The notes beneath the pieces were generated by a model. The model was not told where the DNA came from. It saw only the letters and a program-made list of their open reading frames with translations, and searched no databases. The position numbers and the translations under genes were made by a program. A stretch of 64,000 nucleotides of DNA from Candidatus Omnitrophota bacterium (lineage in GTDB: Bacteria; Omnitrophota; Gorgyraeia; Aquiviventales; Aquiviventaceae), in contig JAHFGV010000005.1 in NCBI GenBank assembly GCA_023247255.1, positions 6,067 through 70,066 of the forward strand, written 5' to 3'. Positions within the stretch are counted from its first letter, which is position 1. Each line of letters starts with the position of its first letter. Of the stretch, positions 20,804-32,995 are shown piece after piece.

Positions 20804-20940
20804 ATTTCGCTGCGCGAATCTATCAGTACCGAACACGTTCAAACCGAGGTGGACGGAAGCTGCGATTCACGATACTATCGTCACTCCGACTGAAATCAGA
20901 GATTTTCTCCGTTACGCGTTTCGCATTGCACGGTTTTTCA

Positions 20941-21106
20941 GGAGGCGCAGCTCAATGGGTTAGGCGTAGCCCCCGCAGCTTTGATCTGTCCCTAGAAATC
21001 GCGAAGCGATTTCAGGGATCAAATCCGAAATGCTTTGCATTCCATGGGACGAAGCAAATCAGTGGGAGGTGGCGGCCTATCGAGCCGTAGGTTGCGGGTT
21101 AGAGCC
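20941..21106 (+). pseudogene. disrupted tRNA-Asp-like pseudogene (5' and 3' fragments separated by about 100 bp)
   Basis: ttttcaggaggcgcagctcaatgggttag (20935-20964) matches the 5' end and upstream context of the intact tRNA-Asp at 23769. ggtggcggcctatcgagccgtaggttgcgggttagagcc (21068-21106) matches its anticodon and T arms. The acceptor 3' end is missing. Confidence 0.45.
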
Positions 21107-21134
21107 AAGCAGACGGTGGTAAGTATTAGATCTG

Positions 21135-22136
21135 TTGCACAATTGCCCAATTTGTAGCATCCTATCCTTAACGCAGAGGAGGAACAAAGGCATGCTACGA
21201 TTTGCCAAACTCGTGCACCACCCGAGGAAACTCTACAGAATGACGGGACTTACGCTTGACCAGTTCCAGACGCTGACGAATCGGCTCACCCCGCTGTGGG
21301 AGCAAGCGGAACGGATGTGCCTCTCGCAGCGCAAGCGAAAGCCACGCCATCGGGAAAGAGTACCAAGTACAAGCTCTCCACGATGGCGGACAAACTCCTG
21401 TGCGTGCTCAGCTTCTACCGCTTCTACCTCTACCTTTGAGCTGCTCGGCTATCTCGTCGGCCTGGATGCCAGCAATATCTGTCGGCTAAAGCCTCGGCTC
21501 GAACCGCTCATTGAGCAGGCAGCCGATCCAAGCCTGGGGCTGTCGCTCCGCCGTCGGCTCCCGCCCGGCGTCAAGAGAATCGGCACCTGGGAGGAACTCG
21601 TGGAGCGCTGTCCGGACTTCGCAGACGTGGTCACTGATGCGACCAAGCAGGCACGACTCCGTCCACCGCGACGCACCCAGCGGCGCTGGTACTCCGGCAA
21701 ACGTAAGCGCCACACACTCAAGACGCAGTTGAGCATCACTCGGCAGAGTGGCCGGATCCTCCATATCAGTTCAACCGTCCCGGGCCGTGTCCATGACTAC
21801 GCGCTCTTGAAGCGGACGCGACTGGACGAACGGCTGCCGCCGAAGACGCGCCTCACCCTGGATCGGGGGTATGATGGTGCCATGACGGACTATCCGACTC
21901 CCGCTATCGCGCTGCCCGTCAAGCGTCGAGGCAACCACCAGGTCCTGACGCGCTCGGAGCGGGCATTCAACCGCCTCCAGGCGCGGCAGCGGATCATCGT
22001 GGAGCATGTCCCAAGTTGCGTGAAGAAGTACCAGCTCCTCGCGCAGGTCTACCGCCACCGGATCGCGGACTACAACCACCGCTTTCGCAACATTGCGGCC
22101 TTGACGAACTTCCGCCTAACGCCGACGGTGACGTAA
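21135..22136 (+). mobile_element. IS5-family (HTH_Tnp_4 + DDE_Tnp_4 type) transposase gene, apparently frameshifted
   Basis: The N-terminal HTH and the C-terminal DDE region (LDRGYDG...) are in one frame. The expected GRPRKLSxEDQLL..L.YLR segment (GKSTKYKLSTMADKLLCVLSFYRFY) lies in the -1 frame between about 21340 and 21438. Candidate imperfect terminal inverted repeats: gcacaattgccc (21150) and gggcaactgcgc (22170). Confidence 0.6.
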
Positions 22137-22278
22137 CCGAACCCGGACGCGCGGAGCCTTCATCGTGTCAAGGGCAACTGCGCAATAGGTCTATTGAATT
22201 AGCTCATGTTGAAATGTAGTGGAACTTGTAGTGGCTGAGCTAACGTGAAAGTACAGTTTCGTAGATGAGGAGCTAACC

Positions 22279-22812
22279 GTGAAGAAGCTATCGCTGGCAA
22301 TTAGGCTCATAGCGGTCTTGCTAATTCTTAATGGAGCGGGAAGGGTAGCTGTTGTTGCTTTTGGCCTGGTAGTCTTTTCAAGAGCGATGGAACCAATCGA
22401 GCTATCGCCAGAGTGGGAAAAGGTCTTGAGCAGAACAGTCCAACGGGGCGCGATTTCACCCGAAGAAGCTGTGCAAAGGAGAGAGCAGGCTAAAAAGGTA
22501 CGTGAGCAGCAAGGGGCGTTCCCTGAGTTTAGGTCTTGGGGTGCAGTACAGGTGCTTGCGCTCATAACCAGTTTACTTGGCATGGGGAAGCTGATTGCTG
22601 GTATCGGTATCTTAATGCTGAGGGATTGGGCGCGGACGTTAGCCGTGTGGCAGTCTGGATTGTGGATTGCGTTTAGTTTTTCGTTCCAGTTATTGCTCAG
22701 GGTTTCTCAAAAGTTCCATAATGTTATCCTAGGCCATCAACAAGTAGGCCATACGGTTGGTCAATGGGTCATGTTCTTCTGCTGGGTTATCTTGAATGGC
22801 TACCTCATCTAG
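22279..22812 (+). CDS. hypothetical membrane protein
   Basis: 177 aa with several predicted TM helices. No recognisable family. Confidence 0.4.
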   Translation: MKKLSLAIRLIAVLLILNGAGRVAVVAFGLVVFSRAMEPIELSPEWEKVLSRTVQRGAISPEEAVQRREQAKKVREQQGAFPEFRSWGAVQVLALITSLLGMGKLIAGIGILMLRDWARTLAVWQSGLWIAFSFSFQLLLRVSQKFHNVILGHQQVGHTVGQWVMFFCWVILNGYLI

Positions 22813-22888
22813 CTTTTCCTTCAACCTTCGGTGAAAGCACAGTTTCAAAAGCAAACGTAGCTCGTTTCGTCAGCTTTCACACTTAAAA

Positions 22889-23078
22889 TCACATCCTGCT
22901 CGACACTCCTCCTGACACCGCCACAGGAAATCGGTTAACATCCTTGTCGTACTCAGGTGAGAGATGCGCGTAATGCTCCATCGTAATTCTGGGGTTTGAG
23001 TGTCCCATCCATTTCTGGATTTTGAAAATGCTGACTTCTGCCTGAGCGACTTGGTGGTGAAGCGAAAGAGCTTGACGA
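22889..23078 (-). pseudogene. 3'-terminal remnant of a tyrosine recombinase/phage integrase gene
   Basis: The minus-strand frame encodes SLHHQVAQAEVSIFKIQKWMGHSNPRITMEHYAHLSPEYDKDVNRF. This matches the integrase C-terminus (HxxR ... LGHS ... T..YAH with the catalytic Tyr). No upstream catalytic domain is present. Confidence 0.5.
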
Positions 23079-23123
23079 ATACAATAGAATATAATACATT
23101 ATAGATATATTCAGGAGGCTCCC

Positions 23124-23366
23124 ATGGCAAAAGTGGTCACGGTACGGCTTTCGGAGGAGGACTATCGAAAGATTGCAGCCGTCGCAAAACGTGAGCGGCG
23201 CCCGCTTTCGAACTTTATGACGCTGATGGTGATCAAGGGCATCGAGGAGGGCGATTACGTCGATGCCGTGGAGATGGATCAGATCCTCGCGGACAAGTCT
23301 CTGAGGGCTAAGTTACGGGCAGGGCACTACGACGCCAAGCGACGCAAAGGCAAGCTCGTTGGCTGA
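23124..23366 (+). CDS. CopG/RHH-family antitoxin
   Basis: 80 aa. MAKVVTVRLSEEDYRKIAAVAKRERRPLSNFMTLMVIKGIEEG is a ribbon-helix-helix fold signature. Overlaps the downstream toxin gene by 8 nt. Confidence 0.65.
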   Translation: MAKVVTVRLSEEDYRKIAAVAKRERRPLSNFMTLMVIKGIEEGDYVDAVEMDQILADKSLRAKLRAGHYDAKRRKGKLVG

Positions 23367-23637
23367 TTTTCGTATCTTCGAGACCTCACAGTTTCAGAAG
23401 GACCTTCAGCAGGACTTCCGAGGGCAACAGGCGCGCATTGAACGCAAGCTCGCCACGTATGTCTATCCCCAGCTGCGAGCGAATTCCTACATCGGGAAGA
23501 ATATCAAGAAACTTCGGGATGCCGTTCCTGAGACCTGGCGGTATCGCATCGGGGATTACCGATTTTTCTACAGGGTCGATGAGCGGCAACGACTCATCTT
23601 TATGCTGACTGCCGACCATCGTGGTCACGCGTATTGA
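23359..23637 (+). CDS. RelE/ParE-family toxin
   Basis: 92 aa. IGKNIKKLRDAVPETWRYRIGDYRFFYRVDERQRLIFMLTADHRGHAY is a canonical RelE/ParE C-terminus. Confidence 0.65.
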   Translation: MADFRIFETSQFQKDLQQDFRGQQARIERKLATYVYPQLRANSYIGKNIKKLRDAVPETWRYRIGDYRFFYRVDERQRLIFMLTADHRGHAY

Positions 23638-23768
23638 ACGATAACCCTGAAGTGATCAGCTTAACAGTTGACGGCAGGAAAAATCCACGATACCATCATC
23701 CCCTCGACGAGAAGCTGGAAGATTTTCTCTCATTACACACTCCACCTTAAACATTACACAGCTTTTCA

Positions 23769-23842
23769 GGGGGCGTAGCTCAATTGGTTAGAGTGGCGGC
23801 CTGTCGAGCCGTAGGTTGCGGGTTCGAGCCCCGTCGCCCCCG
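23769..23842 (+). tRNA. tRNA-Asp (anticodon GTC)
   Basis: Acceptor GGGGGCG/CGCCCCC, D arm GCTC-AATTGGTTA-GAGT, anticodon stem GCGGC/GCCGT with loop CTGTCGA, T arm GCGGG-TTCGAGC-CCCGT. Confidence 0.85.
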
Positions 23843-23844
23843 TT

Positions 23845-24068
23845 TTTGAACTGACGGAAGCCGTTATCTCGGAAGAGGTGACGGCTTCGTCGTCTTCTGG
23901 GATGAAAAAACGTAACCGGGTTGAAGCTGTTTTTATGATGATCCACAGCCAGCTCTTGTACGAAATTCTCAGCCGGTTGATCCATCGGACCGAGAAGTCG
24001 TGGAACGTGTAACCGCAGCGTTTACAGCGGTACCGTTTACCCACGATCCTTTGGTTTTTCAAGCACAC
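23845..24068 (-). pseudogene. possible N-terminal zinc-ribbon remnant of an IS1595-like transposase
   Basis: Minus-strand ORF begins MCLKNQRIVGKRYRCKRCGYTFHDFS (Zn_Tnp_IS1595-like CxxC ... CxxC) and runs into the antisense of tRNA-Asp. Weak. Confidence 0.3.
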
Positions 24069-24224
24069 CAGCCGACCGGAGTTTGAGCACAGAAAACTGA
24101 TTGCGCAATAGGTCTATTGAAGCCCGCGAGAGGGCTGCTCCATTGCGAGTCCTTCTCGTTCTCCTTGACGGTTGTGGCGCGTAGGCGTATTCTTCATGAG
24201 ATGGGTGACGAACCAAGAGCCTTC

Positions 24225-24875
24225 ATGGGCCAATTCCTCTCTCGTATGGAGCCTTTCAGACGACTCAGCCAGGCTGAACGGCTACGGCTTGCTGCTGTCG
24301 CCCGTGAGAAACGCTATGACAAAGGCGACACCATCTTCCGCGCAGGTCAGCCAGCCGATGCCGTCTGCGTCGTCAGAGAAGGCCGCGTCCACTTGATGAA
24401 ATTTCTCGAAGGCGGGCAGGCGTCCACGACGTGCGTCATGACGCCCGGGGAAACGTTCTGTTGTCTGCCGGCGCTTGACGGAAAACCGTACCCCGTGGAT
24501 GCCGTCGCTGCAGTGGACTCCACGGTCATTTGCATTCCTACCAGCGCCTTCCATGAGCTCCTGCGCAAGAACCCCGCGTTCCTCCAAGACTCACTCTGCC
24601 TCTTCTGCGATCGGCTGCGCCAGGTCGAGGACAAGAGTTGCATGACCTACGACTCCGTCGAGCGGCGGCTGGCCAAATCACTCCTCATGCTCTCAAAGAA
24701 GTTCGGCCCGACGATTCCGCTGACCAAACAGGAGCTGGCCGAGCTGGCCAATACCACCCAGGAGACCACGATCCGAATTTTAAGCCAACTGAGCAAGCAA
24801 GGGGTGATTCGTTCCGCCCGCGGGAAAACCACGATCCTGCGCCCAGAGAAGCTCTCCGCCTTCCTCGACCCGTAA
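24225..24875 (+). CDS. Crp/Fnr-family transcriptional regulator
   Basis: cNMP-binding domain (RYDKGDTIFRAGQPADAVCVVREGRVHLMK) plus a C-terminal HTH (LTKQELAELANTTQETTIRILSQLSKQGVI). Start could be as far upstream as 24117. Confidence 0.75.
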   Translation: MGQFLSRMEPFRRLSQAERLRLAAVAREKRYDKGDTIFRAGQPADAVCVVREGRVHLMKFLEGGQASTTCVMTPGETFCCLPALDGKPYPVDAVAAVDSTVICIPTSAFHELLRKNPAFLQDSLCLFCDRLRQVEDKSCMTYDSVERRLAKSLLMLSKKFGPTIPLTKQELAELANTTQETTIRILSQLSKQGVIRSARGKTTILRPEKLSAFLDP

Positions 24876-25848: not shown

Positions 25849-26925
25849 GTGAACCTCCTCGTTGTGGGACTCAGTCATCGCACCGCGCCGCTCGAATTGC
25901 GCGAGCTGCTGGCGATCCCGTCACGCGAGTTGCCCGACACACTCGGCGATCTTCATACCCAGTTCGGGATCGATGAAGCGGTGATCCTGTCGACCTGCAA
26001 TCGGGTTGAGATCTACGTCATCACACCAGACCCCTCCGCAACCTCCTACGGCCTCATCGACTTCTTGAGTCATCGAAGCCACGTGGCCCCCGAGGCGTTC
26101 CAATCCCGGATGTATTGCCTAACGGGACCTGACGCGGTGAGACAGCTCTTTGGCGTCACTGCAGGGCTGGATTCGATGGTCCTTGGGGAGTCAGAAATCA
26201 CGGCCCAAGTGAAACAAGCCTATCGGGTGGCACAAACCGAAGAGACAACCGGGCTTGTGCTCCATCGCCTCTTCCAGAAAGCCTTGCACACGGCAAAGGT
26301 CATTCGATCCAAGACACGCTTAGGCTTTGGCCAAGCCTCCATCGGATCAATCGTTGTCGCGCTTGCCAGGAAACTCTTCGAAGGGCAACTTCAAAATTGC
26401 GAAGTCTTGCTTTGGGGAGCCGGAAAGGCGGCGGAATCGACTGCACGGTATCTCATCAAGAACGGGGTGGGCCAGTTGTGGATTGTCAACCGCACACCGC
26501 TCAAAGCGCGGGATCTTGCGACGCTTTGCCAAAGCGGCTGGCTCTCGTGGGAGCAGGCGTTGAAGCACCTCGCCCACGTCGATATTGCCATCGTCTGCAC
26601 CCAAGCGCCGCACTACGTCATCGATCAAGGCGACCTCGATGCGGTTGCGGCTCAGCGCGGCAGCCGCCCCCTGTGTCTCGTTGACCTGGCGGTGCCTCGC
26701 AACGTCGAGCCGTCCCTCGCGCGGCATCCCGGTGTGCGCCTCTACAACATCGATGATCTCCAAACCATTACGCAGGCTGCACAATCGCAGCGTGAACAGG
26801 AACGCGAACGCTCTGACGCGCTCATTCAGGAGCAGGTCAACCATTTCTCTCGTTGGTGGATGGCAGTTTCCCACAAGAAGGAGGATGTTCCATGCCGATC
26901 CGTCGAGGCCTTCTCGTCGGTGTGA
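25849..26925 (+). CDS. hemA: glutamyl-tRNA reductase
   Basis: MNLLVVGLSHRTAPLELRE ... ILSTCNRVEIY ... NAD(P)-binding GAGKAAESTARYL. 358 aa, somewhat short. Confidence 0.85.
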   Translation: MNLLVVGLSHRTAPLELRELLAIPSRELPDTLGDLHTQFGIDEAVILSTCNRVEIYVITPDPSATSYGLIDFLSHRSHVAPEAFQSRMYCLTGPDAVRQLFGVTAGLDSMVLGESEITAQVKQAYRVAQTEETTGLVLHRLFQKALHTAKVIRSKTRLGFGQASIGSIVVALARKLFEGQLQNCEVLLWGAGKAAESTARYLIKNGVGQLWIVNRTPLKARDLATLCQSGWLSWEQALKHLAHVDIAIVCTQAPHYVIDQGDLDAVAAQRGSRPLCLVDLAVPRNVEPSLARHPGVRLYNIDDLQTITQAAQSQREQERERSDALIQEQVNHFSRWWMAVSHKKEDVPCRSVEAFSSV

Positions 26926-28118
26926 GTCTCGTCGCGGCGCTTACGCTCGGAGAATCAGCGTGGGCAACGATCGAGAACCTCAAAAGCTACAAGGCAGCCT
27001 ATCCCGATAAAGATCCCAAGGCCTATTCGTGCAAGGCCTGCCACGAGGGCCTCATCGGGAAGAAAGACAACCTCAACGCCTATGGTCTCACCTTGCAGAA
27101 GTTCAAAGTGGATGCCGGGGCGAAGAAATTGACCGAAGAAGATTTTCGGGCGTTCGAGGCTGCGGATGCTGATGGGGATGGCGCCTCCAATCTTGATGAG
27201 CTGGACGCGGGCACTGATCTGAATGATCCCACGTCCGTGCCGGAGGGCGCTGGGCAAACGCCAGAAAAAAAAGAAGAAAGCCCAGGCACTGAGCAGCAGA
27301 CAAGCCCTCCAGGCGGCGCGTCGCAACTGAATCCAGGGACACTGAAACAGTTGCAGGCCTACCTGGAGGAGCAGATCGTCCCAGACGTTCAAGCGGCGCC
27401 AGAGGAATCGTCAGTGTCTAGGCGGCATGACGACAAAACAGCGTCCAACGCCAAATCCTCCCAACCCGAACAGGCTGAGTACGTGGGGATGGAGACCTGC
27501 GCGATGTGTCATAACAAGCAGCACCAGGAATTTCTCCACTCAACCCATGCCAGGATCGCAATCCCCGGAGAGACCAAGGCGCAAGGTTGTGAGACCTGTC
27601 ATGGGCCCGGCAGTCTGCACGTTGCTGCCGGTGGCGGTCGTGGCGTCGGTGGGATTATCAATCCGAAGAAGGATCCCGGCGCCTGTTTTGCCTGTCACCT
27701 CGACAAGAAAGCGGAATTTCGTTTGCCCCATCACCATCCCGTGATGGAAGGCAAGATGAGTTGTGCGGATTGCCACAATCCCCACGGTGAGGATGTGCGG
27801 CCGTGGTCAGCGACGACGCTGAAGGATATCAATGAGGCCTGCTTTCGGTGCCACAAGGAACAGCGCGGCCCATTCGCCTGGGAACACGAGGCGCTGCGGG
27901 AAGGTTGCACGACCTGTCACAAGGTTCATGGCTCGATTCACGAGAAGATGCTGCTCGTCCGGGACAACAACTTGTGCCTGCGCTGCCATACGCAGACGAA
28001 CTTCCCGACCATTGGCAGGTCCAGCCATGCTGGCCGGCTTCCCCAAGGGACGTGCTTTAGCGCGGGATGCCATACGGCGGTTCACGGATCGAACTTCGAC
28101 GATCACCTCCGCTACTAA
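26892..28118 (+). CDS. periplasmic multiheme (8-9 heme) cytochrome c with acidic Ca-binding-like N-terminal linker
   Basis: Signal peptide MPIRRGLLVGVSLVAALTLGESAWA. Eight CxxCH motifs plus one CxxxCH (CFSAGCH). A DADGDGASNLDELDAGTDLNDP TSP3-like acidic repeat lies after heme 1. Confidence 0.75.
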   Translation: MPIRRGLLVGVSLVAALTLGESAWATIENLKSYKAAYPDKDPKAYSCKACHEGLIGKKDNLNAYGLTLQKFKVDAGAKKLTEEDFRAFEAADADGDGASNLDELDAGTDLNDPTSVPEGAGQTPEKKEESPGTEQQTSPPGGASQLNPGTLKQLQAYLEEQIVPDVQAAPEESSVSRRHDDKTASNAKSSQPEQAEYVGMETCAMCHNKQHQEFLHSTHARIAIPGETKAQGCETCHGPGSLHVAAGGGRGVGGIINPKKDPGACFACHLDKKAEFRLPHHHPVMEGKMSCADCHNPHGEDVRPWSATTLKDINEACFRCHKEQRGPFAWEHEALREGCTTCHKVHGSIHEKMLLVRDNNLCLRCHTQTNFPTIGRSSHAGRLPQGTCFSAGCHTAVHGSNFDDHLRY

Positions 28119-28130
28119 AGGAGACGCCTC

Positions 28131-30191
28131 ATGCGCGCGATGCTTTGTTGGACGTTGGGAGGAATTCTGGGTGTGAGTCTATGGTTACCCTCACGCCTTG
28201 CTGAGGCTGCGGACCCGGAGGTTTCCCTTTCCCTGGAGCCCATCCGTTATGCGTTCGTCAATGGCGACCGGGATAAGTTTAGCGCCCATCATTGGATGAA
28301 AGACAACTACGTCGGAGGCGTGAAGGAGTTTTCCTTCGACTACGCCCTTGCGGATGGAACGCAGCTCTCCGCAGAAAGCCACGCGCTCATTGATCAAAAC
28401 GATTTGGGCGCTGACGTCTCACTTAAGAAAGACTCACTGGGCTTTTTCAATCTCGGCTACTCCGAATTCCGCAAGTATTACGATAAAACCGGTGGTGTGT
28501 ACTATCCGTTTACCACCCTTCGCAGCAACGATACGTTTAAGGACCTTGCTCTGGACATCGGTCACCTCAGCCTTGAAAGCGGGTTGACCCTGGAAGGCTG
28601 GCCTGACCTGACCTTCGAGTACGAGCGCGAATTCAAGGATGGGGCGAAATCGCGCCTGAGCTGGGTCCCAACGAAGGAAGGGACCACCACCCGGAATATC
28701 GGTCCCTCGTGGCAAGATCTTGATGAGGTCGTCGACTCATTTGGCCTCAAAGCCGATCATGAGATCGCAGGATTCACTCTCAAGGGCGAGCAGCGATGGG
28801 AGTTCGTGCGGACCGAAACCTTTCGGGAGGAGAAATTTCTCGCGACAACAGGTGTCGCAGCAGACACCAAGATTCGACGGCAGGACCAAGCCCCGCAAGC
28901 CACCTTGATGACGACGACGTTAGGCGGGGAGCGTTCGTTCTTCGCTGACAAGATATTTACATCGATGGGCTACCATTTCGCCCACATGGATAATCGGGAA
29001 TTCGAGACAATCGTCGAGTCGAACGCGGCTGGAACCGTAACAAACTTTTCGAATCCGAAGCAGATCCGTAATGCGCGCGCCGATAACGACTACGATACCC
29101 ATACCTGGGTAGGGAACTTCATGATCAACCCCTGGAACTGGCTGAGCCTCGGGACCAAACTCAAGGCTGAAGCGATTCACCGGGAGAGCGACTCAAGCTA
29201 TCCGGCGGATGCCTCGCCGAACTCCACGGGCGGCAGCACCCCGAATGGGGCGATCGACTCTCTCGTGGCCAGTCTCAACAAGAACAAGGCCGTTCGCTGG
29301 GGGGAAGGAGTGTCCCTGCGGTTTTTTGGCATCCCACGCACCGCTCTCTACACTGATTTGGAGTTGGAGCAATCGCGAGTAATCTTGGCAGAGGATCGGA
29401 AAGATTTAGTGACGATCCCGAATGTCAACGAGGATTTCAGCCGCTACACTGTCACCAACGTCCGACGAGGGACGTGGACATTGGGCGGCCATGTCGCGCC
29501 GGGGTCGTTCCTCGATCTGACGACGCAGGTCCGGCGACGTGTCAACAACAACGACTACGATGACCAACGGGAAACCGTCGCCTCAGGGACGGCGCTGTCC
29601 GCATTCGTCGATATGCAGAACATCCATACGGATGAGTTCACCACGCGGGCCACGCTGCGGCCCTCTCGGTGGTTTCGCCCCTCGTTCCGGTACCAGTTCC
29701 GTAACGATAAATATGCGACTCGGACGGAAGCGCAGGATACCGTAAAGACGGGTATGCTCTCGAACATCTACACTTTTGACGTAACGGCACAACCGTTGCG
29801 AGACCTCACGACCACCGCCTCCTTCTCGCGTCAGACGGCCGTCACCACCACTCCCGCGGGTTCGGCGTCGTCAGCAAACGTTCCTGGGTTTCGCGCAAAT
29901 GTCAACACGTGGCTTTTCAGCACCGACTACAGCCCAAGGGCGAATGTGAGTATCACCAACGCGCTGCTCTATTCGCGCGCAAGAAACTTCAACGATTTTA
30001 CCGCCAGCGGGATGCCGTTCGGGACCTCGTTTGATCGGCTGGATGTGACCACAGGTCTGAAGTGGGCGCTGACCGAGGATACGTCTGTTGGCACCGAATA
30101 CGCATTCTACTCGTATCTGCCCAATTCGCTGACCGAAGTGGGCGACTACCATGCCCACGTCATCTGGCTCGAGTTGTCGAAGCAGTTTTGA
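28131..30191 (+). CDS. putative outer-membrane beta-barrel (porin partner of the preceding cytochrome, MtrB/PioB/MtoB-like)
   Basis: 686 aa with a signal peptide, alternating amphipathic beta-strand patterns and an aromatic C-terminus ...HVIWLELSKQF. Gene order cytochrome then barrel matches mtrAB/pioAB/mtoAB. No sequence comparison was possible. Confidence 0.45.
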   Translation: MRAMLCWTLGGILGVSLWLPSRLAEAADPEVSLSLEPIRYAFVNGDRDKFSAHHWMKDNYVGGVKEFSFDYALADGTQLSAESHALIDQNDLGADVSLKKDSLGFFNLGYSEFRKYYDKTGGVYYPFTTLRSNDTFKDLALDIGHLSLESGLTLEGWPDLTFEYEREFKDGAKSRLSWVPTKEGTTTRNIGPSWQDLDEVVDSFGLKADHEIAGFTLKGEQRWEFVRTETFREEKFLATTGVAADTKIRRQDQAPQATLMTTTLGGERSFFADKIFTSMGYHFAHMDNREFETIVESNAAGTVTNFSNPKQIRNARADNDYDTHTWVGNFMINPWNWLSLGTKLKAEAIHRESDSSYPADASPNSTGGSTPNGAIDSLVASLNKNKAVRWGEGVSLRFFGIPRTALYTDLELEQSRVILAEDRKDLVTIPNVNEDFSRYTVTNVRRGTWTLGGHVAPGSFLDLTTQVRRRVNNNDYDDQRETVASGTALSAFVDMQNIHTDEFTTRATLRPSRWFRPSFRYQFRNDKYATRTEAQDTVKTGMLSNIYTFDVTAQPLRDLTTTASFSRQTAVTTTPAGSASSANVPGFRANVNTWLFSTDYSPRANVSITNALLYSRARNFNDFTASGMPFGTSFDRLDVTTGLKWALTEDTSVGTEYAFYSYLPNSLTEVGDYHAHVIWLELSKQF

Positions 30192-30634
30192 TGTGTCCTC
30201 GTCAGCCCCTCAGTCGCCGGGTTTTCCTGGCGCTTTGCCTCAGGGGTGGTGGGCTTGCCCTGCTTGGGGCTGCGCTCTATCCCATCCTGCGGTATCTCTA
30301 TCCTCCCCGAGGCGTTGAATCCTCCGTCTCCAGCGTTGCGGCGGCGAAGGTGGGGGATCTGGCGACGAATACCGCGAAGATCTTCCGGTTCGGCAGTCGG
30401 CCCGGCCTCCTCATTCGTTCCCCCCAAGGCGAGCTCAAAGCCTTCTCGGCGGTGTGCACCCACCTCAACTGCACCGTTCAGTACGACAGCGACGCGAGCA
30501 TCATCTGGTGCGCCTGCCACAACGGCAAGTATGACTTAAACGGACAGGTCATCTCCGGCCCTCCCCCACGACCACTCGATGCCTACCAGGTGAACGTCCG
30601 CGGAGAAGACATCATCGTCTCCAAGACGTCCTAG
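30191..30634 (+). CDS. Rieske [2Fe-2S] protein
   Basis: TAT-like SRRVFLALCL. Rieske boxes CTHLNC and CACHNGKYD. About 147 aa. ATG overlaps the upstream stop. Confidence 0.8.
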   Translation: MCPRQPLSRRVFLALCLRGGGLALLGAALYPILRYLYPPRGVESSVSSVAAAKVGDLATNTAKIFRFGSRPGLLIRSPQGELKAFSAVCTHLNCTVQYDSDASIIWCACHNGKYDLNGQVISGPPPRPLDAYQVNVRGEDIIVSKTS

Positions 30635-30638
30635 CCTG

Positions 30639-31709
30639 ATGGGGTACTTCGAGCACCTACGCGCATTCTTGCATGAGCGCTACCGGCTGGGTGGCCTAGT
30701 GGATCTCGCCACGCATAAGACGGTCCCCATCCACCGCCACAGCGTCTGGTACTACTGGGGCGGCATGACGCTCGTGCTCATCGGCATCCAGATCATCAGC
30801 GGTGTGCTGCTGTTGCTGTACTACCGCCCATCAGCCCAGGAAGCCTTCGAGTCGGTTCGCTTCCTCATGACGCGGGTGCAATTCGGGTGGCTGGTGCGCT
30901 CCGTGCACGCGTGGGCGGCGAACCTGGCGATCTTCTGCGCGATGGTGCATCTGGCCAGCGTCTTTTTCCTGAAGGCGTATCGGCCACCCCGTGAACTGAC
31001 CTGGGTGACCGGGGTTGTGTTGTTGTTTCTGCTATTTGGTTTCGGATTTACCGGCTACCTCCTGCCGTGGAATACGCTGGCGTTTTTCGCCACCAAGGTC
31101 GGCACGGAAATCGCGGGGATTGTGCCCGTCGTCGGGCCTGTCGTTCAAATCTTTCTGCGCGGTGGAAGCGACGTTGGGGATGTGACGATCACGCGGTTCT
31201 TTTGGCTTCATGTCGCAATCCTGCCAATCGGCCTGATGACACTCTTAAGCCTTCATCTGCTCATGATCCAGCTCCAGGGCATGAGCAAACCGCCTTGGGT
31301 TAAGAGCAATCGGTCCATGCCGTTCTTTCCGAATTTTTTCCTGCGCGATCTGGTTGCCTGGTCACTCATACTGGGGATAGTGCTGTGTGTGAGCGTGCAC
31401 TGGCCCGCGACGCTCGGCGAAAAGGCCGATCCGTTCGCTCCGACACCCGTGGGCATCCAACCGGAATGGTATTTTCTCTGGATGTTTCAGACGCTCAAGA
31501 TTTTCCCTGGCCACCTGTTTGGTCTCGAGGGTGAGTTAGTCGCGGTGGGATTGACCGGACTGGCGGGTCTTGCGCTGCTACTCGTTCCATGGCTGGATCG
31601 CCCCGCCCGACGGGAGCAATCATCCTGGCTGGTATGGGCTGTTGGCGTGTTGGGCATTGCCTATGTCGTCGGGATGACCGGCTACGCGCTATGGGTGAAA
31701 CCTCACTGA
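30639..31709 (+). CDS. cytochrome b (fused b6 / subunit IV type)
   Basis: 356 aa. His ligands lie in TM helices (VHAWAANLAIFCAMVHL, WLHVAILPIGLMTLLSLHLLMIQ). PEWYFL motif present. Confidence 0.85.
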   Translation: MGYFEHLRAFLHERYRLGGLVDLATHKTVPIHRHSVWYYWGGMTLVLIGIQIISGVLLLLYYRPSAQEAFESVRFLMTRVQFGWLVRSVHAWAANLAIFCAMVHLASVFFLKAYRPPRELTWVTGVVLLFLLFGFGFTGYLLPWNTLAFFATKVGTEIAGIVPVVGPVVQIFLRGGSDVGDVTITRFFWLHVAILPIGLMTLLSLHLLMIQLQGMSKPPWVKSNRSMPFFPNFFLRDLVAWSLILGIVLCVSVHWPATLGEKADPFAPTPVGIQPEWYFLWMFQTLKIFPGHLFGLEGELVAVGLTGLAGLALLLVPWLDRPARREQSSWLVWAVGVLGIAYVVGMTGYALWVKPH

Positions 31710-32995
31710 TGACAGGGTATCGTCTACGGGTGGCACTCGGACTTCTGCTGTGCCCTGGCTTTGTGTGGTCGGCTGAGAAGCCGAATAGTTGTGTCGAGTG
31801 CCACAAGCAGGTGGAGGGCCAAACGCGAGGGCCGGCCACACTGGCTGCAGAGGACGTGCATTTCCAGCGAGGCTTGTCCTGCGTGGATTGCCATGGCGGC
31901 GATCCAACAGCGATGGATCCTCAAGCCGCGATGGACCCGGCTAAAGGGTTCCTCGGTCGCCCGAGGCGGGAGCAGATTCCCCAGTTTTGCGCCCGGTGCC
32001 ACGCGGATCCGGCCACCATGCGCAAGTACAATCCCAATCTTCCGACTGACCAATACGCGAAGTACCTGACCAGTCAGCACGGGAAGCGCTTCAGTGTTGG
32101 CGATGCCGATGTGCCGGTCTGCATCAGTTGCCACGAGGCGCACGGCATCCGCTCGAAAAAAGACCCAGCCTCGCCGGTCTACCCGACGAACATCCCCGGA
32201 ACCTGCGCGAGCTGCCACAGCGACGCGTCGATCATGGACAAACACGGCTTGCCGGTGAACCAGCACTGGGACTACTCGCAGAGCGTCCACGGCCAGGCGC
32301 TGTTGTTCCGTGGCGATCGTGCGGCTCCCCATTGCGCGAGCTGCCACGGATCGCACGAAGCGGCCAAACCTAGGACGGTCGCAATCGGCAACGTCTGCGC
32401 TCAGTGCCATAGCCTCACGCGCGATCTGTTTGCAAAGAGTCCCCACAAGGCCGCGCATGAAGCCTTAGGGCTTCCGGAGTGCGAGGTCTGCCACGGCAAT
32501 CACCTGATCCGCAAGCCAAGCGACGAGATGCTTGGGACGGGACAAGATGCGGTGTGTGTCAGTTGTCACGAGCCAGGGTCGACCGGCTACGTCACCGCGC
32601 AGCAGATGCGCAGCGCCATCGAGCAACTGAAAACCCACATGGCCAGCGCTGAGGCAGCCGTCAGGCACGCAGCGGAGTTGGGCATGGATGTCGGTGACGC
32701 GGAATTTGAGCTTCGCGAGGCGATGACCCAACTCACGCAAGAGCGCACCTACGTCCACTCTTTCTCCGCCGCAACCATGGAACCCATTGCCGAGGAGGGA
32801 ACTCACCACGCCCTGCGGGCCGAGGGGCAAGCCCGCCAGGCGATCCGTGAGTTTCATTTCCGCCGTCAGGGCTTGTGGGTCACCCTGATCATTCTCGCCC
32901 TCGTGGTTTCTGGACTCCTTCTGAAGATTCGAGACTTGGAGCGATCGGACTCGACAGACAAGATGGACGACACATCCCCTCGCGACTCCTCGTAA
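31709..32995 (+). CDS. multiheme (about 9 heme) cytochrome c with C-terminal membrane anchor
   Basis: Signal peptide, then nine CxxCH motifs and a C-terminal TM helix WVTLIILALVVSGLLLKI. Start overlaps the cytochrome b stop. Confidence 0.75.
   Translation: MTGYRLRVALGLLLCPGFVWSAEKPNSCVECHKQVEGQTRGPATLAAEDVHFQRGLSCVDCHGGDPTAMDPQAAMDPAKGFLGRPRREQIPQFCARCHADPATMRKYNPNLPTDQYAKYLTSQHGKRFSVGDADVPVCISCHEAHGIRSKKDPASPVYPTNIPGTCASCHSDASIMDKHGLPVNQHWDYSQSVHGQALLFRGDRAAPHCASCHGSHEAAKPRTVAIGNVCAQCHSLTRDLFAKSPHKAAHEALGLPECEVCHGNHLIRKPSDEMLGTGQDAVCVSCHEPGSTGYVTAQQMRSAIEQLKTHMASAEAAVRHAAELGMDVGDAEFELREAMTQLTQERTYVHSFSAATMEPIAEEGTHHALRAEGQARQAIREFHFRRQGLWVTLIILALVVSGLLLKIRDLERSDSTDKMDDTSPRDSS

What the first reader, a model, noticed from the sequence alone, without database searches (positions are those of the whole stretch)
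20935..23842. Decayed integrative element at tRNA-Asp: split pseudo-tRNA, frameshifted IS5-type transposase, cargo membrane protein, integrase 3' remnant, CopG/RelE pair, intact tRNA-Asp
A tRNA-Asp-like pseudogene lies 2.8 kb upstream of the intact tRNA-Asp (23769-23842). Its 5' part keeps the same ttttcagg upstream context and it is interrupted by about 100 bp. Between them lie a transposase, a hypothetical membrane protein, the last roughly 60 codons of a tyrosine recombinase on the minus strand (22889-23078, ...WMGHSNPRITMEHYAHL...), and a CopG/RelE toxin-antitoxin pair. A 20-bp direct repeat tgcgcaataggtctattgaa occurs at 22178 and 24100, bracketing the integrase remnant, TA pair and tRNA. 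Together these mark a tRNA-targeted island that has been eroded by IS activity.
Basis: seen in the sequence. Interest (0 to 1): 0.55.

Follow-up and report, generated by a model that had tools for sequence, protein, structure and literature searches.

The report
Decayed genomic island at tRNA-Asp
This is the worn-down remnant of a mobile DNA island that once inserted into a tRNA-Asp gene, later invaded by a now-dead insertion sequence; this is a common kind of genomic scar, with one uncommon detail: the island left behind the front part of the tRNA gene, not the back part.

Summary
The reading as a decayed tRNA-Asp island holds in outline, but three points change.

1. The 20-bp direct repeat is not an island boundary. 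It is the right terminal inverted repeat of the IS5-like element (about 21122-22198). A solo copy of that repeat lies at 24102-24121.
2. Twenty-seven metagenome loci carry the same tRNA-Asp, and 21 of them have tRNA-Val just upstream. Eight have only 20-62 nt between tRNA-Val and tRNA-Asp, so the window's 4.6-kb gap is inserted DNA. One relative (L019) has the same truncated tRNA-Asp copy, ending at about position 61-62 with the same following bases. It then has the same integrase remnant, toxin-antitoxin (TA) pair, promoter and intact tRNA-Asp. The island is therefore old and shared. The hydrolase gene, the IS, the membrane-protein gene and the 105-nt insert in the pseudo-tRNA were not found in any of the 27 loci.
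3. The displaced fragment is the 5' part and lies upstream of the intact gene. This is the known minority configuration (159 of 3919 Islander islands).

The integrase is cut at the edge of the TA module, not by the IS.

The finding is ordinary. One puzzle remains: the integrase remnant still evolves like a coding sequence.

The parts
19140..19213 (+). tRNA-Val(TAC). This is the host anchor. In 21 of 27 related loci tRNA-Val lies upstream of tRNA-Asp, and in eight of them the gap is only 20-62 nt.
   Evidence: ARAGORN; script on loci L014-L040.
19434..19450 (+). 17-nt exact copy of the tRNA-Val 3' end (19196-19212). The pair encloses a roughly 220-nt segment rich in inverted repeats. This is a separate small att-like insertion scar.
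   Evidence: the repeat finder D15, I1, I2; fuzzy search. Window 19379-19440 is 75% identical to L021 1994-2064, which sits next to a tRNA-Asp 3' repeat.
19517..20803 (+). Alpha/beta-hydrolase gene (PETase-like), lying between tRNA-Val and the pseudo-tRNA-Asp. No homologue was found in any of the 27 related loci.
   Evidence: Pfam; tblastn against the loci found nothing; best homologues are 50% identical or less and not syntenic.
20848..20940 (+). Diverged copy of the promoter-bearing region that precedes the intact tRNA-Asp (TGGACG-17-TACTAT here).
   Evidence: Alignments.
20941..20963 (+). Pseudo-tRNA-Asp, positions 1-23.
   Evidence: the repeat finder D2; blastn.
20964..21068 (.). 105-nt insertion in the D-arm of the pseudo-tRNA, with a hairpin at 20983-21025. 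Its origin is unknown. It is found nowhere else in the window or in the 27 loci.
   Evidence: The 11-nt resemblance to the tRNA 3' end is not significant (87 of 500 shuffles reach it).
21069..21106 (+). Pseudo-tRNA-Asp, positions 25-62. The anticodon is ATC and the T-loop is mutated. The copy ends at the boundary between the T-loop and the T-stem.
   Evidence: the repeat finder D1; the same end point is seen in L019 7383-7443.
21107..21121 (+). First bases of the island arm after the tRNA fragment (AAGCAGACGGTGG). They are homologous to L019 GAAGTAGACAGCG.
   Evidence: blastn window 21069-21114 against L019 7407-7452; sequence.
21122..22198 (+). IS5-family-like insertion sequence. Its transposase ORF 21192-22136 is disabled by an internal out-of-frame segment. 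Imperfect terminal inverted repeats.
   Evidence: Pfam and NCBIfam; alignments with copies L013 and L043; protein alignment.
22179..22198 (+). Right terminal inverted repeat of the IS.
   Evidence: Similarity to L013 stops exactly here; in L043 it stops 2-5 nt short, because that copy's outermost bases differ.
22279..22812 (+). 177-aa hydrophobic protein of unknown family. Cargo or a later acquisition. No homologue found in the 27 related loci.
22889..23078 (-). C-terminal roughly 60 codons of a tyrosine integrase, including the catalytic Tyr region.
   Evidence: Translation; PF00589; orthologous remnants in L019, L022 and L040; longer relatives P0157 and P0167 have the Phage_integrase domain.
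23071..23641 (+). Toxin-antitoxin module with its promoter: RHH antitoxin 23124-23366 and RelE/ParE toxin 23359-23637. It occurs as a discrete 571-nt unit at other positions in relatives.
   Evidence: blastn boundaries 23071-23641 in L018 and L039, and 23072 in L028. dN/dS 0.04-0.14, with one pair at 0.29.
23642..23768 (+). Promoter-bearing arm upstream of the intact tRNA-Asp (TTGACG 23668, 17-nt spacer, TACCAT ending at 23696). It is shared with L019 and L022 but is not seen in the 130 nt upstream of tRNA-Asp in the other loci.
23769..23842 (+). Intact tRNA-Asp(GTC), the regenerated or replacement copy.
   Evidence: It is 100% identical over all 74 nt in most of the 27 loci.
23880..24068 (-). 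63-codon ORF fragment with weak resemblance to an IS1/IS1595 N-terminal zinc ribbon. It is absent from relatives.
   Evidence: NCBIfam NF050000, E 0.006, below cut-off; no blastn match in the loci beyond 23899.
24102..24121 (+). Solo copy of the IS right terminal inverted repeat, a scar of a lost IS copy.
   Evidence: There is no IS-like sequence to its left.

Best explanation
The window holds a nested pile of mobile-element remnants in the short spacer between two host tRNA genes, tRNA-Val and tRNA-Asp.

The core is an old integrative island that recombined with tRNA-Asp at the T-loop, about position 61-62. The island carried a promoter and the 5' two-thirds of tRNA-Asp in its attachment site. 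Integration therefore left the host's 5' part as a dead fragment on the upstream side, now 20941-21106. It rebuilt a working gene on the downstream side (23769-23842), transcribed from the island's own promoter.

The island's integrase gene was later lost, apart from its last 60 or so codons, which now end at the edge of a RelE/ParE-RHH toxin-antitoxin module. That state predates the split from the relatives L019, L022 and L040.

Later events apparently confined to this lineage:
- an IS5-like element inserted 15 nt inside the island arm and then became inactive;
- a second copy of that IS downstream of the tRNA was lost, leaving 20 bp of its end;
- 105 nt were inserted into the dead tRNA fragment;
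- a hydrolase gene and a membrane-protein gene were acquired.

The pseudo-copy is preceded by a diverged copy of the island promoter. It is therefore most simply an attP-like junction of two islands that once sat in tandem. This last step is inference only.

The anatomy, the IS ends and the comparison with relatives are shown directly. The recombination mechanism, the order of events and the tandem stage are inferred.
For: Shown by tool results:
1. Sequence similarity of the two tRNA-Asp copies and their upstream regions.
2. Relatives with the identical tRNA-Asp show atpG-atpD-permease-tRNA-Val-spacer-tRNA-Asp. The spacer is 20-62 nt in eight loci and at most 2061 nt in the others, against 4555 nt here.
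3. L019 has tRNA-Val, then 73 nt, then a tRNA-Asp fragment ending at position 61 followed by GAAGTAGACAGCG (the window has AAGCAGACGGTGG). After 1.07 kb of unrelated DNA it has the integrase remnant on the minus strand, the antitoxin, the toxin, the same promoter region and the intact tRNA-Asp.
4. L022 and L040 carry integrase remnant, TA and promoter, then a tRNA-Asp fragment (positions 1-31), 185 nt, and the intact tRNA-Asp. L017 has a fragment with the same end point. The break points (anticodon arm and T-loop) are the two classical crossover sublocations (Islander Table 1).
5. Islander accepts a 5' fragment upstream of the tDNA as an island configuration and counts 159 of 3919 such islands (PMC4383910). 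Replacement of a disrupted target by an island-borne homologue has a precedent (PMC7192596).
6. The integrase remnant belongs to a real integrase family. P0167 has the whole catalytic domain and is 94% identical to the longer remnant P0157. Integrases of 330 aa match P0157 at 53-59%.
7. IS ends: similarity to the independent copy L013 stops exactly after TCTATTGAA. The third copy, L043, shares the repeat up to its degenerate last few bases. The left and right ends form an imperfect inverted repeat.
8. No homologue of the transposase, hydrolase or membrane protein occurs in the 27 loci.
Against: - No intact member of this island family, with a full integrase and an attP carrying the tRNA 5' part, was found. 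The last context look-up returned no DNA, and two viral-contig scans gave nothing useful. The 5'-supplying attP is therefore inferred from junctions only.
- The upstream region of the window's pseudo-copy resembles the window's own intact copy more than it resembles the L019 or L022 promoters. A local duplication or gene conversion would give the same pattern.
- In L022 and L040 the integrase remnant abuts tRNA-Val, which on its own would suggest a tRNA-Val-targeted element.
- No target-site duplication could be identified for the IS, and the DNA to its right is not colinear with L019. The IS may therefore have mediated a rearrangement instead of a simple insertion.
- The relatives are metagenome contigs of unknown phylogeny, so 'ancestral' rests on parsimony.
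Confidence: 0.68

Rival explanations
1. There was no site-specific integration into tRNA-Asp. A segment carrying the promoter and tRNA-Asp was duplicated by ordinary recombination or replication slippage. One copy decayed, and the IS, the TA module and an unrelated integrase fragment accumulated between the copies because the spacer is a tolerant site.
For: - About 90 nt upstream of the tRNA are duplicated as well, which is not expected of a classical 3' att repeat.
- The two window copies share upstream motifs that L019 and L022 lack.
- The TA module occurs at other positions in relatives.
- The tRNA-Val to tRNA-Asp spacer holds different unrelated genes in different relatives.
Against: - The same fragment end point and the same following bases occur in L019 in a different upstream context, 73 nt after tRNA-Val.
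- Fragment end points in four lineages fall at the anticodon arm or the T-loop, the known integrase crossover sites.
- A tyrosine-integrase remnant lies between fragment and intact gene in the window and in L019. In both, its C-terminal end points towards the fragment, as in lambda-type attL-int arrangements.
Confidence: 0.15
2. The integrase and TA belonged to an element that targeted the 3' end of tRNA-Val, not tRNA-Asp. The tRNA-Asp fragment is an unrelated by-product.
For: - In L022 and L040 the integrase remnant starts immediately after the 3' end of tRNA-Val, on the opposite strand.
- The window has a 17-nt exact repeat of the tRNA-Val 3' end 238 nt downstream of the original.
Against: - In L019 the tRNA-Asp fragment lies between tRNA-Val and the integrase remnant.
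- In L022 and L040 the remnant has lost its own last 15 or so codons at the tRNA-Val junction, which indicates a secondary deletion.
- The tRNA-Val repeat in the window encloses only about 220 nt and lies upstream of the hydrolase gene, far from the integrase remnant.
Confidence: 0.1
3. The two copies are attachment-type boundaries of a 1.9-kb unit carrying the membrane-protein gene, the integrase remnant, the TA pair and the tRNA. A related idea is that they are operator sites for the adjacent Crp/Fnr regulator.
For: - The repeat is exact and unique in the window.
- It contains a 5-4-5 palindrome, CAATA-GGTC-TATTG.
- Both copies lie 80-105 nt upstream of a plus-strand gene.
Against: - The same sequence, with 2 substitutions, ends the IS copy in an Omnitrophota genome assembled from a metagenome (a MAG), and a close variant ends a third copy. 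All lie just downstream of the transposase stop, and the sequence pairs with the left end as an inverted repeat.
- The six non-palindromic bases are also identical between the two window copies. This points to common descent, not convergent binding sites.
Confidence: 0.03

Closest known systems
Genomic islands in tRNA genes with a displaced 5' tDNA fragment (Islander database class, 159 of 3919 islands; PMC4383910)
   Same: There is a full tRNA gene at one end and a same-orientation end fragment of that gene at the other. The 5' fragment lies upstream. Tyrosine-integrase sequence lies between them. The break is at the T-loop / T-stem junction.
   Different: Only about 60 codons of the integrase remain. 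The fragment is itself split by 105 nt. The island is 2.7 kb, and part of that is later IS DNA. No active member was found.
Islands that replace the 5' end of their target gene, such as dusA-specific integrase islands (PMC4482086)
   Same: The element sits at the 5' side of the target and must supply a new 5' end and promoter.
   Different: The target here is a tRNA gene, not a protein-coding gene. Membership of the dusA integrase family was not tested and is not claimed.
Gene replacement by an island-borne homologue, as for the tmRNA-encoding island in a Rhodobacter tmRNA gene, cited in PMC7192596
   Same: The disrupted host copy is not restored, and a functional copy linked to the island takes over.
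   Different: Here the replacement may be a hybrid (island 5' part plus host 3' part) and not a wholly island-borne gene. The data cannot tell these apart.
IS5-family insertion sequences with a DDE_Tnp_4 transposase. The closest copy is in Candidatus Omnitrophota MAG contig JACPXQ010000244 (L013).
   Same: About 1.07 kb, a single transposase gene of about 313 aa, and the same terminal inverted repeats. The repaired protein is about 80% identical.
   Different: The window copy has three 1-nt insertions that put about 30 codons out of frame. No target-site duplication is recognisable. The NCBIfam IS5 models score below their cut-offs.
Type II RelE/ParE-RHH toxin-antitoxin modules on mobile elements
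   Same: A small antitoxin gene overlaps the toxin gene, with its own sigma-70-like promoter. It is associated with island remnants and is under purifying selection.
   Different: The antitoxin reaches no curated family threshold. Activity is untested.

Membership tests
tRNA-targeted integrative genomic island (Islander criteria) | A complete tRNA gene marks one end | tested here: met
   tRNA-Asp 23769-23842.
tRNA-targeted integrative genomic island (Islander criteria) | A cognate end fragment of the same tRNA gene, in the same orientation and an allowed configuration (5' fragment upstream or 3' fragment downstream) | tested here: met
   Positions 1-62 at 20941-21106, same strand, upstream. 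Configuration rule from PMC4383910. The fragment is interrupted by 105 nt.
tRNA-targeted integrative genomic island (Islander criteria) | A tyrosine integrase gene inside the island | tested here: not met
   Only the last 60 or so codons remain. The island is a remnant and not a functional member.
tRNA-targeted integrative genomic island (Islander criteria) | An uninterrupted site exists in related genomes | tested here: met
   Eight loci with the identical tRNA-Asp have tRNA-Val and tRNA-Asp 20-62 nt apart, with no fragment and no mobile genes.
tRNA-targeted integrative genomic island (Islander criteria) | Excision and integration by site-specific recombination | not testable with these tools
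   It would need an intact element or an experiment.
tRNA (Rfam RF00005), applied to the upstream copy | It scores as a tRNA with a covariance model | tested here: not met
   No hit at E <= 10 in 20700-24300 apart from the intact gene. ARAGORN finds nothing. It is a pseudogene fragment.
IS5 family insertion sequence | DDE transposase of the DDE_Tnp_4 / DDE_Tnp_1 type | tested here: met
   PF13359, 75 bits against a cut-off of 24.8. NCBIfam IS5 model NF033581 scores 70 bits, below its cut-off of 140.
IS5 family insertion sequence | Terminal inverted repeats that delimit the element | tested here: met
   The ends were defined from three independent copies. The left and right ends pair imperfectly.
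IS5 family insertion sequence | Short target-site duplication | tested here: inconclusive
   No matching flanks were found in the window, L013 or L043. The outermost 3 nt of the ends are uncertain.
IS5 family insertion sequence | Intact transposase reading frame | tested here: not met
   Residues about 50-80 are out of frame relative to P0028, P0025 and P0045.
Type II toxin-antitoxin, RelE/ParE superfamily | Toxin with the ParE/RelE fold family signature | tested here: met
   PF05016, 28.5 bits against a cut-off of 23. TIGR02385 scores 23.9, below its cut-off of 27.9.
Type II toxin-antitoxin, RelE/ParE superfamily | Upstream RHH-type antitoxin in an overlapping operon | tested here: inconclusive
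   The genes overlap by 8 nt. The RHH and RelB antitoxin hits are all below their thresholds.

The most novel reading that the evidence does not exclude
An uncultured lineage, whose closest named hits are Candidatus Omnitrophota MAGs, may harbour a family of integrative elements that habitually replace the promoter and 5' part of tRNA genes. After the element decays, the host tRNA-Asp would remain dependent on the element's promoter. The TA module and a roughly 40-60-codon integrase C-terminal fragment would then be kept by selection as part of that unit. The fragment shows dN/dS of 0.06-0.15 and a third-codon-position substitution bias, even though its truncation junction is shared across the compared lineages.
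Probability: 0.15. Interest if true: 0.45.

Novelty: new member of a known kind. Interest (0 to 1): 0.25.

Why it matters
The main value is for annotation. The region should not be read as one 2.9-kb island bounded by a 20-bp repeat. It is a hot spot between tRNA-Val and tRNA-Asp that holds remnants of several events of different ages.

The locus also adds examples of the uncommon island configuration in which the 5' part of the tRNA gene is displaced, seen repeatedly in one uncultured lineage. If the tRNA-Asp is now transcribed from an island-derived promoter, that would be a small case of a host gene becoming dependent on mobile DNA. Nothing here bears on a major open question.

Tried and rejected
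- Synteny search with HemA in GTDB genomes found only relatives of 28-40% identity and was uninformative.
- Hydrolase homologues are 50% identical or less and lie in unrelated contexts.
- Exact look-ups of window proteins returned only short contigs of the same organism.
- I tested whether the 105-nt insert starts with a copy of the tRNA 3' end, which would make the pseudo-tRNA two separate fragments. The 11-nt match is reached by 87 of 500 shuffles, so I rejected this.
- I considered the 20-mer as an operator for the neighbouring Crp/Fnr regulator. I rejected this because the sequence is the IS terminus in independent copies.
- I considered an SSV-type integrase split by its own attP, with the minus-strand ORF that reads through the tRNA and starts with a zinc ribbon as the N-terminal part. 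I rejected this because that segment (23900-24101) is absent from all relatives, and because the remnant's truncated end faces the TA module and not an att site.
- I searched for a further 3' copy of tRNA-Asp in the window and found none with up to 3 mismatches.
- A profile search with the integrase remnant found only fragments of 43-104 aa.
- Viral-contig scans for the fragment/arm junction and for the integrase gave nothing useful.
- The DNA to the right of the IS is not colinear with L019, so a simple-insertion model for the IS could not be confirmed.


Full report
**1. What is in the sequence**

ARAGORN finds two tRNA genes in the window: tRNA-Val(TAC) at 19140-19213 and tRNA-Asp(GTC) at 23769-23842. 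Rfam scores the tRNA-Asp at 69 bits and finds no other tRNA-like match in 20700-24300, even at E <= 10.

A second, broken copy of tRNA-Asp is nevertheless clear from similarity to the intact gene:
- 20924-20963 matches 23752-23791 (85% of 40 nt).
- 21069-21106 matches 23793-23830 (95% of 38 nt).

These two pieces are adjacent in the intact gene. In the copy they are separated by 105 nt (20964-21068) that fold into a hairpin. The copy covers tRNA positions 1-62 and lacks the 3' T-stem and acceptor strand. It also carries A for G at the first anticodon base and a mutated T-loop (sequence).

About 90 nt upstream are similar too, including a sigma-70-like site, TTGACG-17-TACCAT, at 23668-23696.

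Between the copies lie:
- an ORF with a DDE_Tnp_4 domain (21192-22136);
- a 177-aa hydrophobic ORF with no family match;
- the last 60 or so codons of a tyrosine recombinase on the minus strand (22889-23078, matching the end of the PF00589 profile);
- an RHH antitoxin and a ParE/RelE toxin.

The 20-nt repeat is exact, at 22179-22198 and 24102-24121.

**2. The 20-bp repeat is an IS end**

The repaired transposase has many intact homologues of about 313 aa. I aligned the window with two independent copies. One is from a Candidatus Omnitrophota MAG (L013) and the other from a JGI metagenome contig (L043).

The alignments show that the element starts at about 21122-21125. In the window and in L013 it ends exactly at 22198, after ...TGCGCAATAGGTCTATTGAA. 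L043 shares the repeat up to its last few bases. The left end is an imperfect inverted copy of this sequence. The repeat at 22179 is therefore the right terminal inverted repeat.

The copy at 24102 has no IS sequence beside it and is best read as the scar of a lost copy.

The transposase ORF is open (314 aa, identical to P0156). Three 1-nt insertions put residues about 50-80 out of frame relative to functional relatives. A contig from the same ENA sample carries the same defect.

**3. Comparison with relatives**

Protein-based searches for syntenic relatives failed. A metagenome scan with the 3' 51 nt of the tRNA-Asp then returned 27 loci. Scripted tRNA and tblastn scans of these loci gave the following:
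- The conserved order is atpG, atpD, permease, tRNA-Val, spacer, tRNA-Asp.
- 21 loci have tRNA-Val upstream of tRNA-Asp.
- The spacer is 20-62 nt in eight loci and 158-2061 nt in the others. It is 4555 nt in the window.
- Longer spacers hold various unrelated small genes.
- No locus has a homologue of the window's hydrolase, transposase or membrane protein.

**4. The island is shared and old**

L019 carries, in order:
- tRNA-Val;
- 73 nt of spacer;
- a tRNA-Asp fragment that ends at position 61, followed by GAAGTAGACAGCG (the window has AAGCAGACGGTGG after position 62);
- 1.07 kb of unrelated DNA;
- the integrase remnant on the minus strand, then the antitoxin and the toxin;
- a region homologous to the window's promoter arm;
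- the intact tRNA-Asp.

L022 and L040 have the remnant directly after tRNA-Val, with its own last codons deleted. Then come the TA pair, the promoter arm, a tRNA-Asp fragment (positions 1-31), 185 nt, and the intact gene. L017 has a fragment with the same end point, itself split by 58 nt.

The junction between the integrase remnant and the TA promoter aligns without gaps in the window, L019 and L022. The integrase was therefore truncated at the TA module before these lineages separated, and not by the IS.

The TA module (23071-23641) also occurs alone at other positions in L018, L028 and L039.

**5. Mechanism**

In the commonest case, the island supplies the 3' part of the tRNA gene, and the displaced 3' fragment lies downstream. 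Here, and in L019, L022, L040 and L017, the fragment is the 5' part and lies upstream of the working gene.

The Islander paper lists this as an allowed configuration and counts 159 such islands among 3919. It also names the anticodon region and the T-stem region as the crossover sublocations (PMC4383910). The end points seen here, near positions 31 and 61-62, fall in those regions.

The simplest model is an island whose attachment site carried a promoter plus tRNA-Asp positions 1-62. Integration leaves host upstream DNA plus positions 1-62 joined to the island arm, which is the dead fragment. At the far end it joins island promoter plus positions 1-62 to the host 3' end, which gives the working gene. 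Replacement of a disrupted target by an island-linked copy has a precedent (PMC7192596).

The window's fragment is preceded by a diverged copy of the island promoter and not by tRNA-Val spacer. It therefore looks like an attP-type junction from a former tandem pair of islands. This is inference, and a local duplication cannot be excluded.

**6. Later events in this lineage**

- The IS sits 15 nt inside the island arm.
- DNA to the right of the IS is not colinear with L019, so an IS-mediated rearrangement is possible.
- The 105-nt insert, the hydrolase gene and the membrane-protein gene have no counterpart in the relatives.
- Downstream of the tRNA, similarity to relatives ends at about 23899. 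It is followed by a 63-codon fragment with weak zinc-ribbon similarity to IS1/IS1595 proteins (E 0.006), and then by the solo IS end.

**7. An unexplained point**

The integrase remnant does not look like a drifting pseudogene.
- Over 37 core codons, dN/dS is 0.10 (window against L019), 0.06 (window against L022) and 0.15 (L019 against L022). dS is 0.5-1.6. These values are similar to those of the TA genes.
- Substitutions are concentrated at third codon positions.
- The window has no canonical start codon before the Met of WMGHS.

A word-indexed search with the remnant profile found only fragments. An exhaustive HMMER search with P0157 found a 193-aa protein with the whole catalytic domain at 94% identity, and 330-aa integrases at 53-59%.

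Live relatives therefore exist or existed recently, and occasional gene conversion from them might explain the pattern. The sample is small, and I leave this open.

**8. Verdict**

This is an ordinary, multiply nested island remnant at a tRNA hot spot. It needs correcting on the meaning of the 20-bp repeat, on what truncated the integrase, and on the age and extent of the region. The uncommon 5'-fragment configuration and the constrained integrase remnant are the only points of modest interest.

Noticed in passing
window 19196-19212 and 19434-19450, with inverted repeats at 19284-19360: A 17-nt exact repeat of the tRNA-Val 3' end lies 238 nt downstream of the original. The pair encloses a segment with 24-25-nt inverted repeats. 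Window 19379-19440 is 75% identical to L021 1994-2064, which lies between tRNA-Asp and a repeat of its 3' end. This looks like a family of roughly 200-nt att-flanked inserts at tRNA 3' ends.
   Followed up: partly
window 22889-23078 (minus strand); L019 8525-8731; L022; L040; L041 513-680: The integrase C-terminal remnant shows dN/dS of 0.06-0.15 and a third-codon-position substitution bias, although its truncation junction is shared by the compared loci. In L041 a similar remnant is truncated at nearly the same residue but abuts the 5' end of a tRNA-Thr gene.
   Followed up: partly
window 23071-23641; L018 12399-12969; L039 2853-3423 (inverted); L028 1208-1412: The RHH-RelE/ParE module with its promoter recurs as a discrete 571-nt unit at different positions around the tRNA-Val and tRNA-Asp pair in relatives. 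This suggests that it moves or is recombined as a cassette. No flanking repeats were examined.
   Followed up: partly
L018 1617-3833 and L035 3388-5604: A classical 3'-type island remnant: tRNA-Asp, and a repeat of its 3' end plus downstream sequence 2.1 kb further on. The two enclose a Fic-domain gene and a cation-efflux-like gene, with no integrase.
   Followed up: partly
L017 6783-6875: The tRNA-Asp 5' fragment in this relative is split by a 58-nt insertion in the D-loop region. This echoes the 105-nt insertion in the window's fragment. Both insertions begin just after GGTTAG with the bases GCG.
   Followed up: no
window 23880-24068 (minus strand): An ORF that starts with a CxxC zinc-ribbon-like motif (weak IS1/IS1595 N-terminal hit) and reads antisense through the tRNA-Asp. 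It is absent from all relatives and is probably a fragment of another lost mobile element.
   Followed up: partly
L041 671-742 and about 893-931: In an Omnitrophota MAG, a complete tRNA-Thr(CGT) and a convergent 5' fragment of a second tRNA-Thr(CGT), ending after the anticodon loop, lie 150 nt apart. They sit next to the integrase remnant and a Fic gene.
   Followed up: no
window 26853-32995: Downstream of hemA lies a cluster of multihaem c-type cytochromes (DmsE-like decahaem hits) and a cytochrome b. The permease upstream of tRNA-Val gives a weak MamN/ArsB-type hit. This is context only.
   Followed up: no
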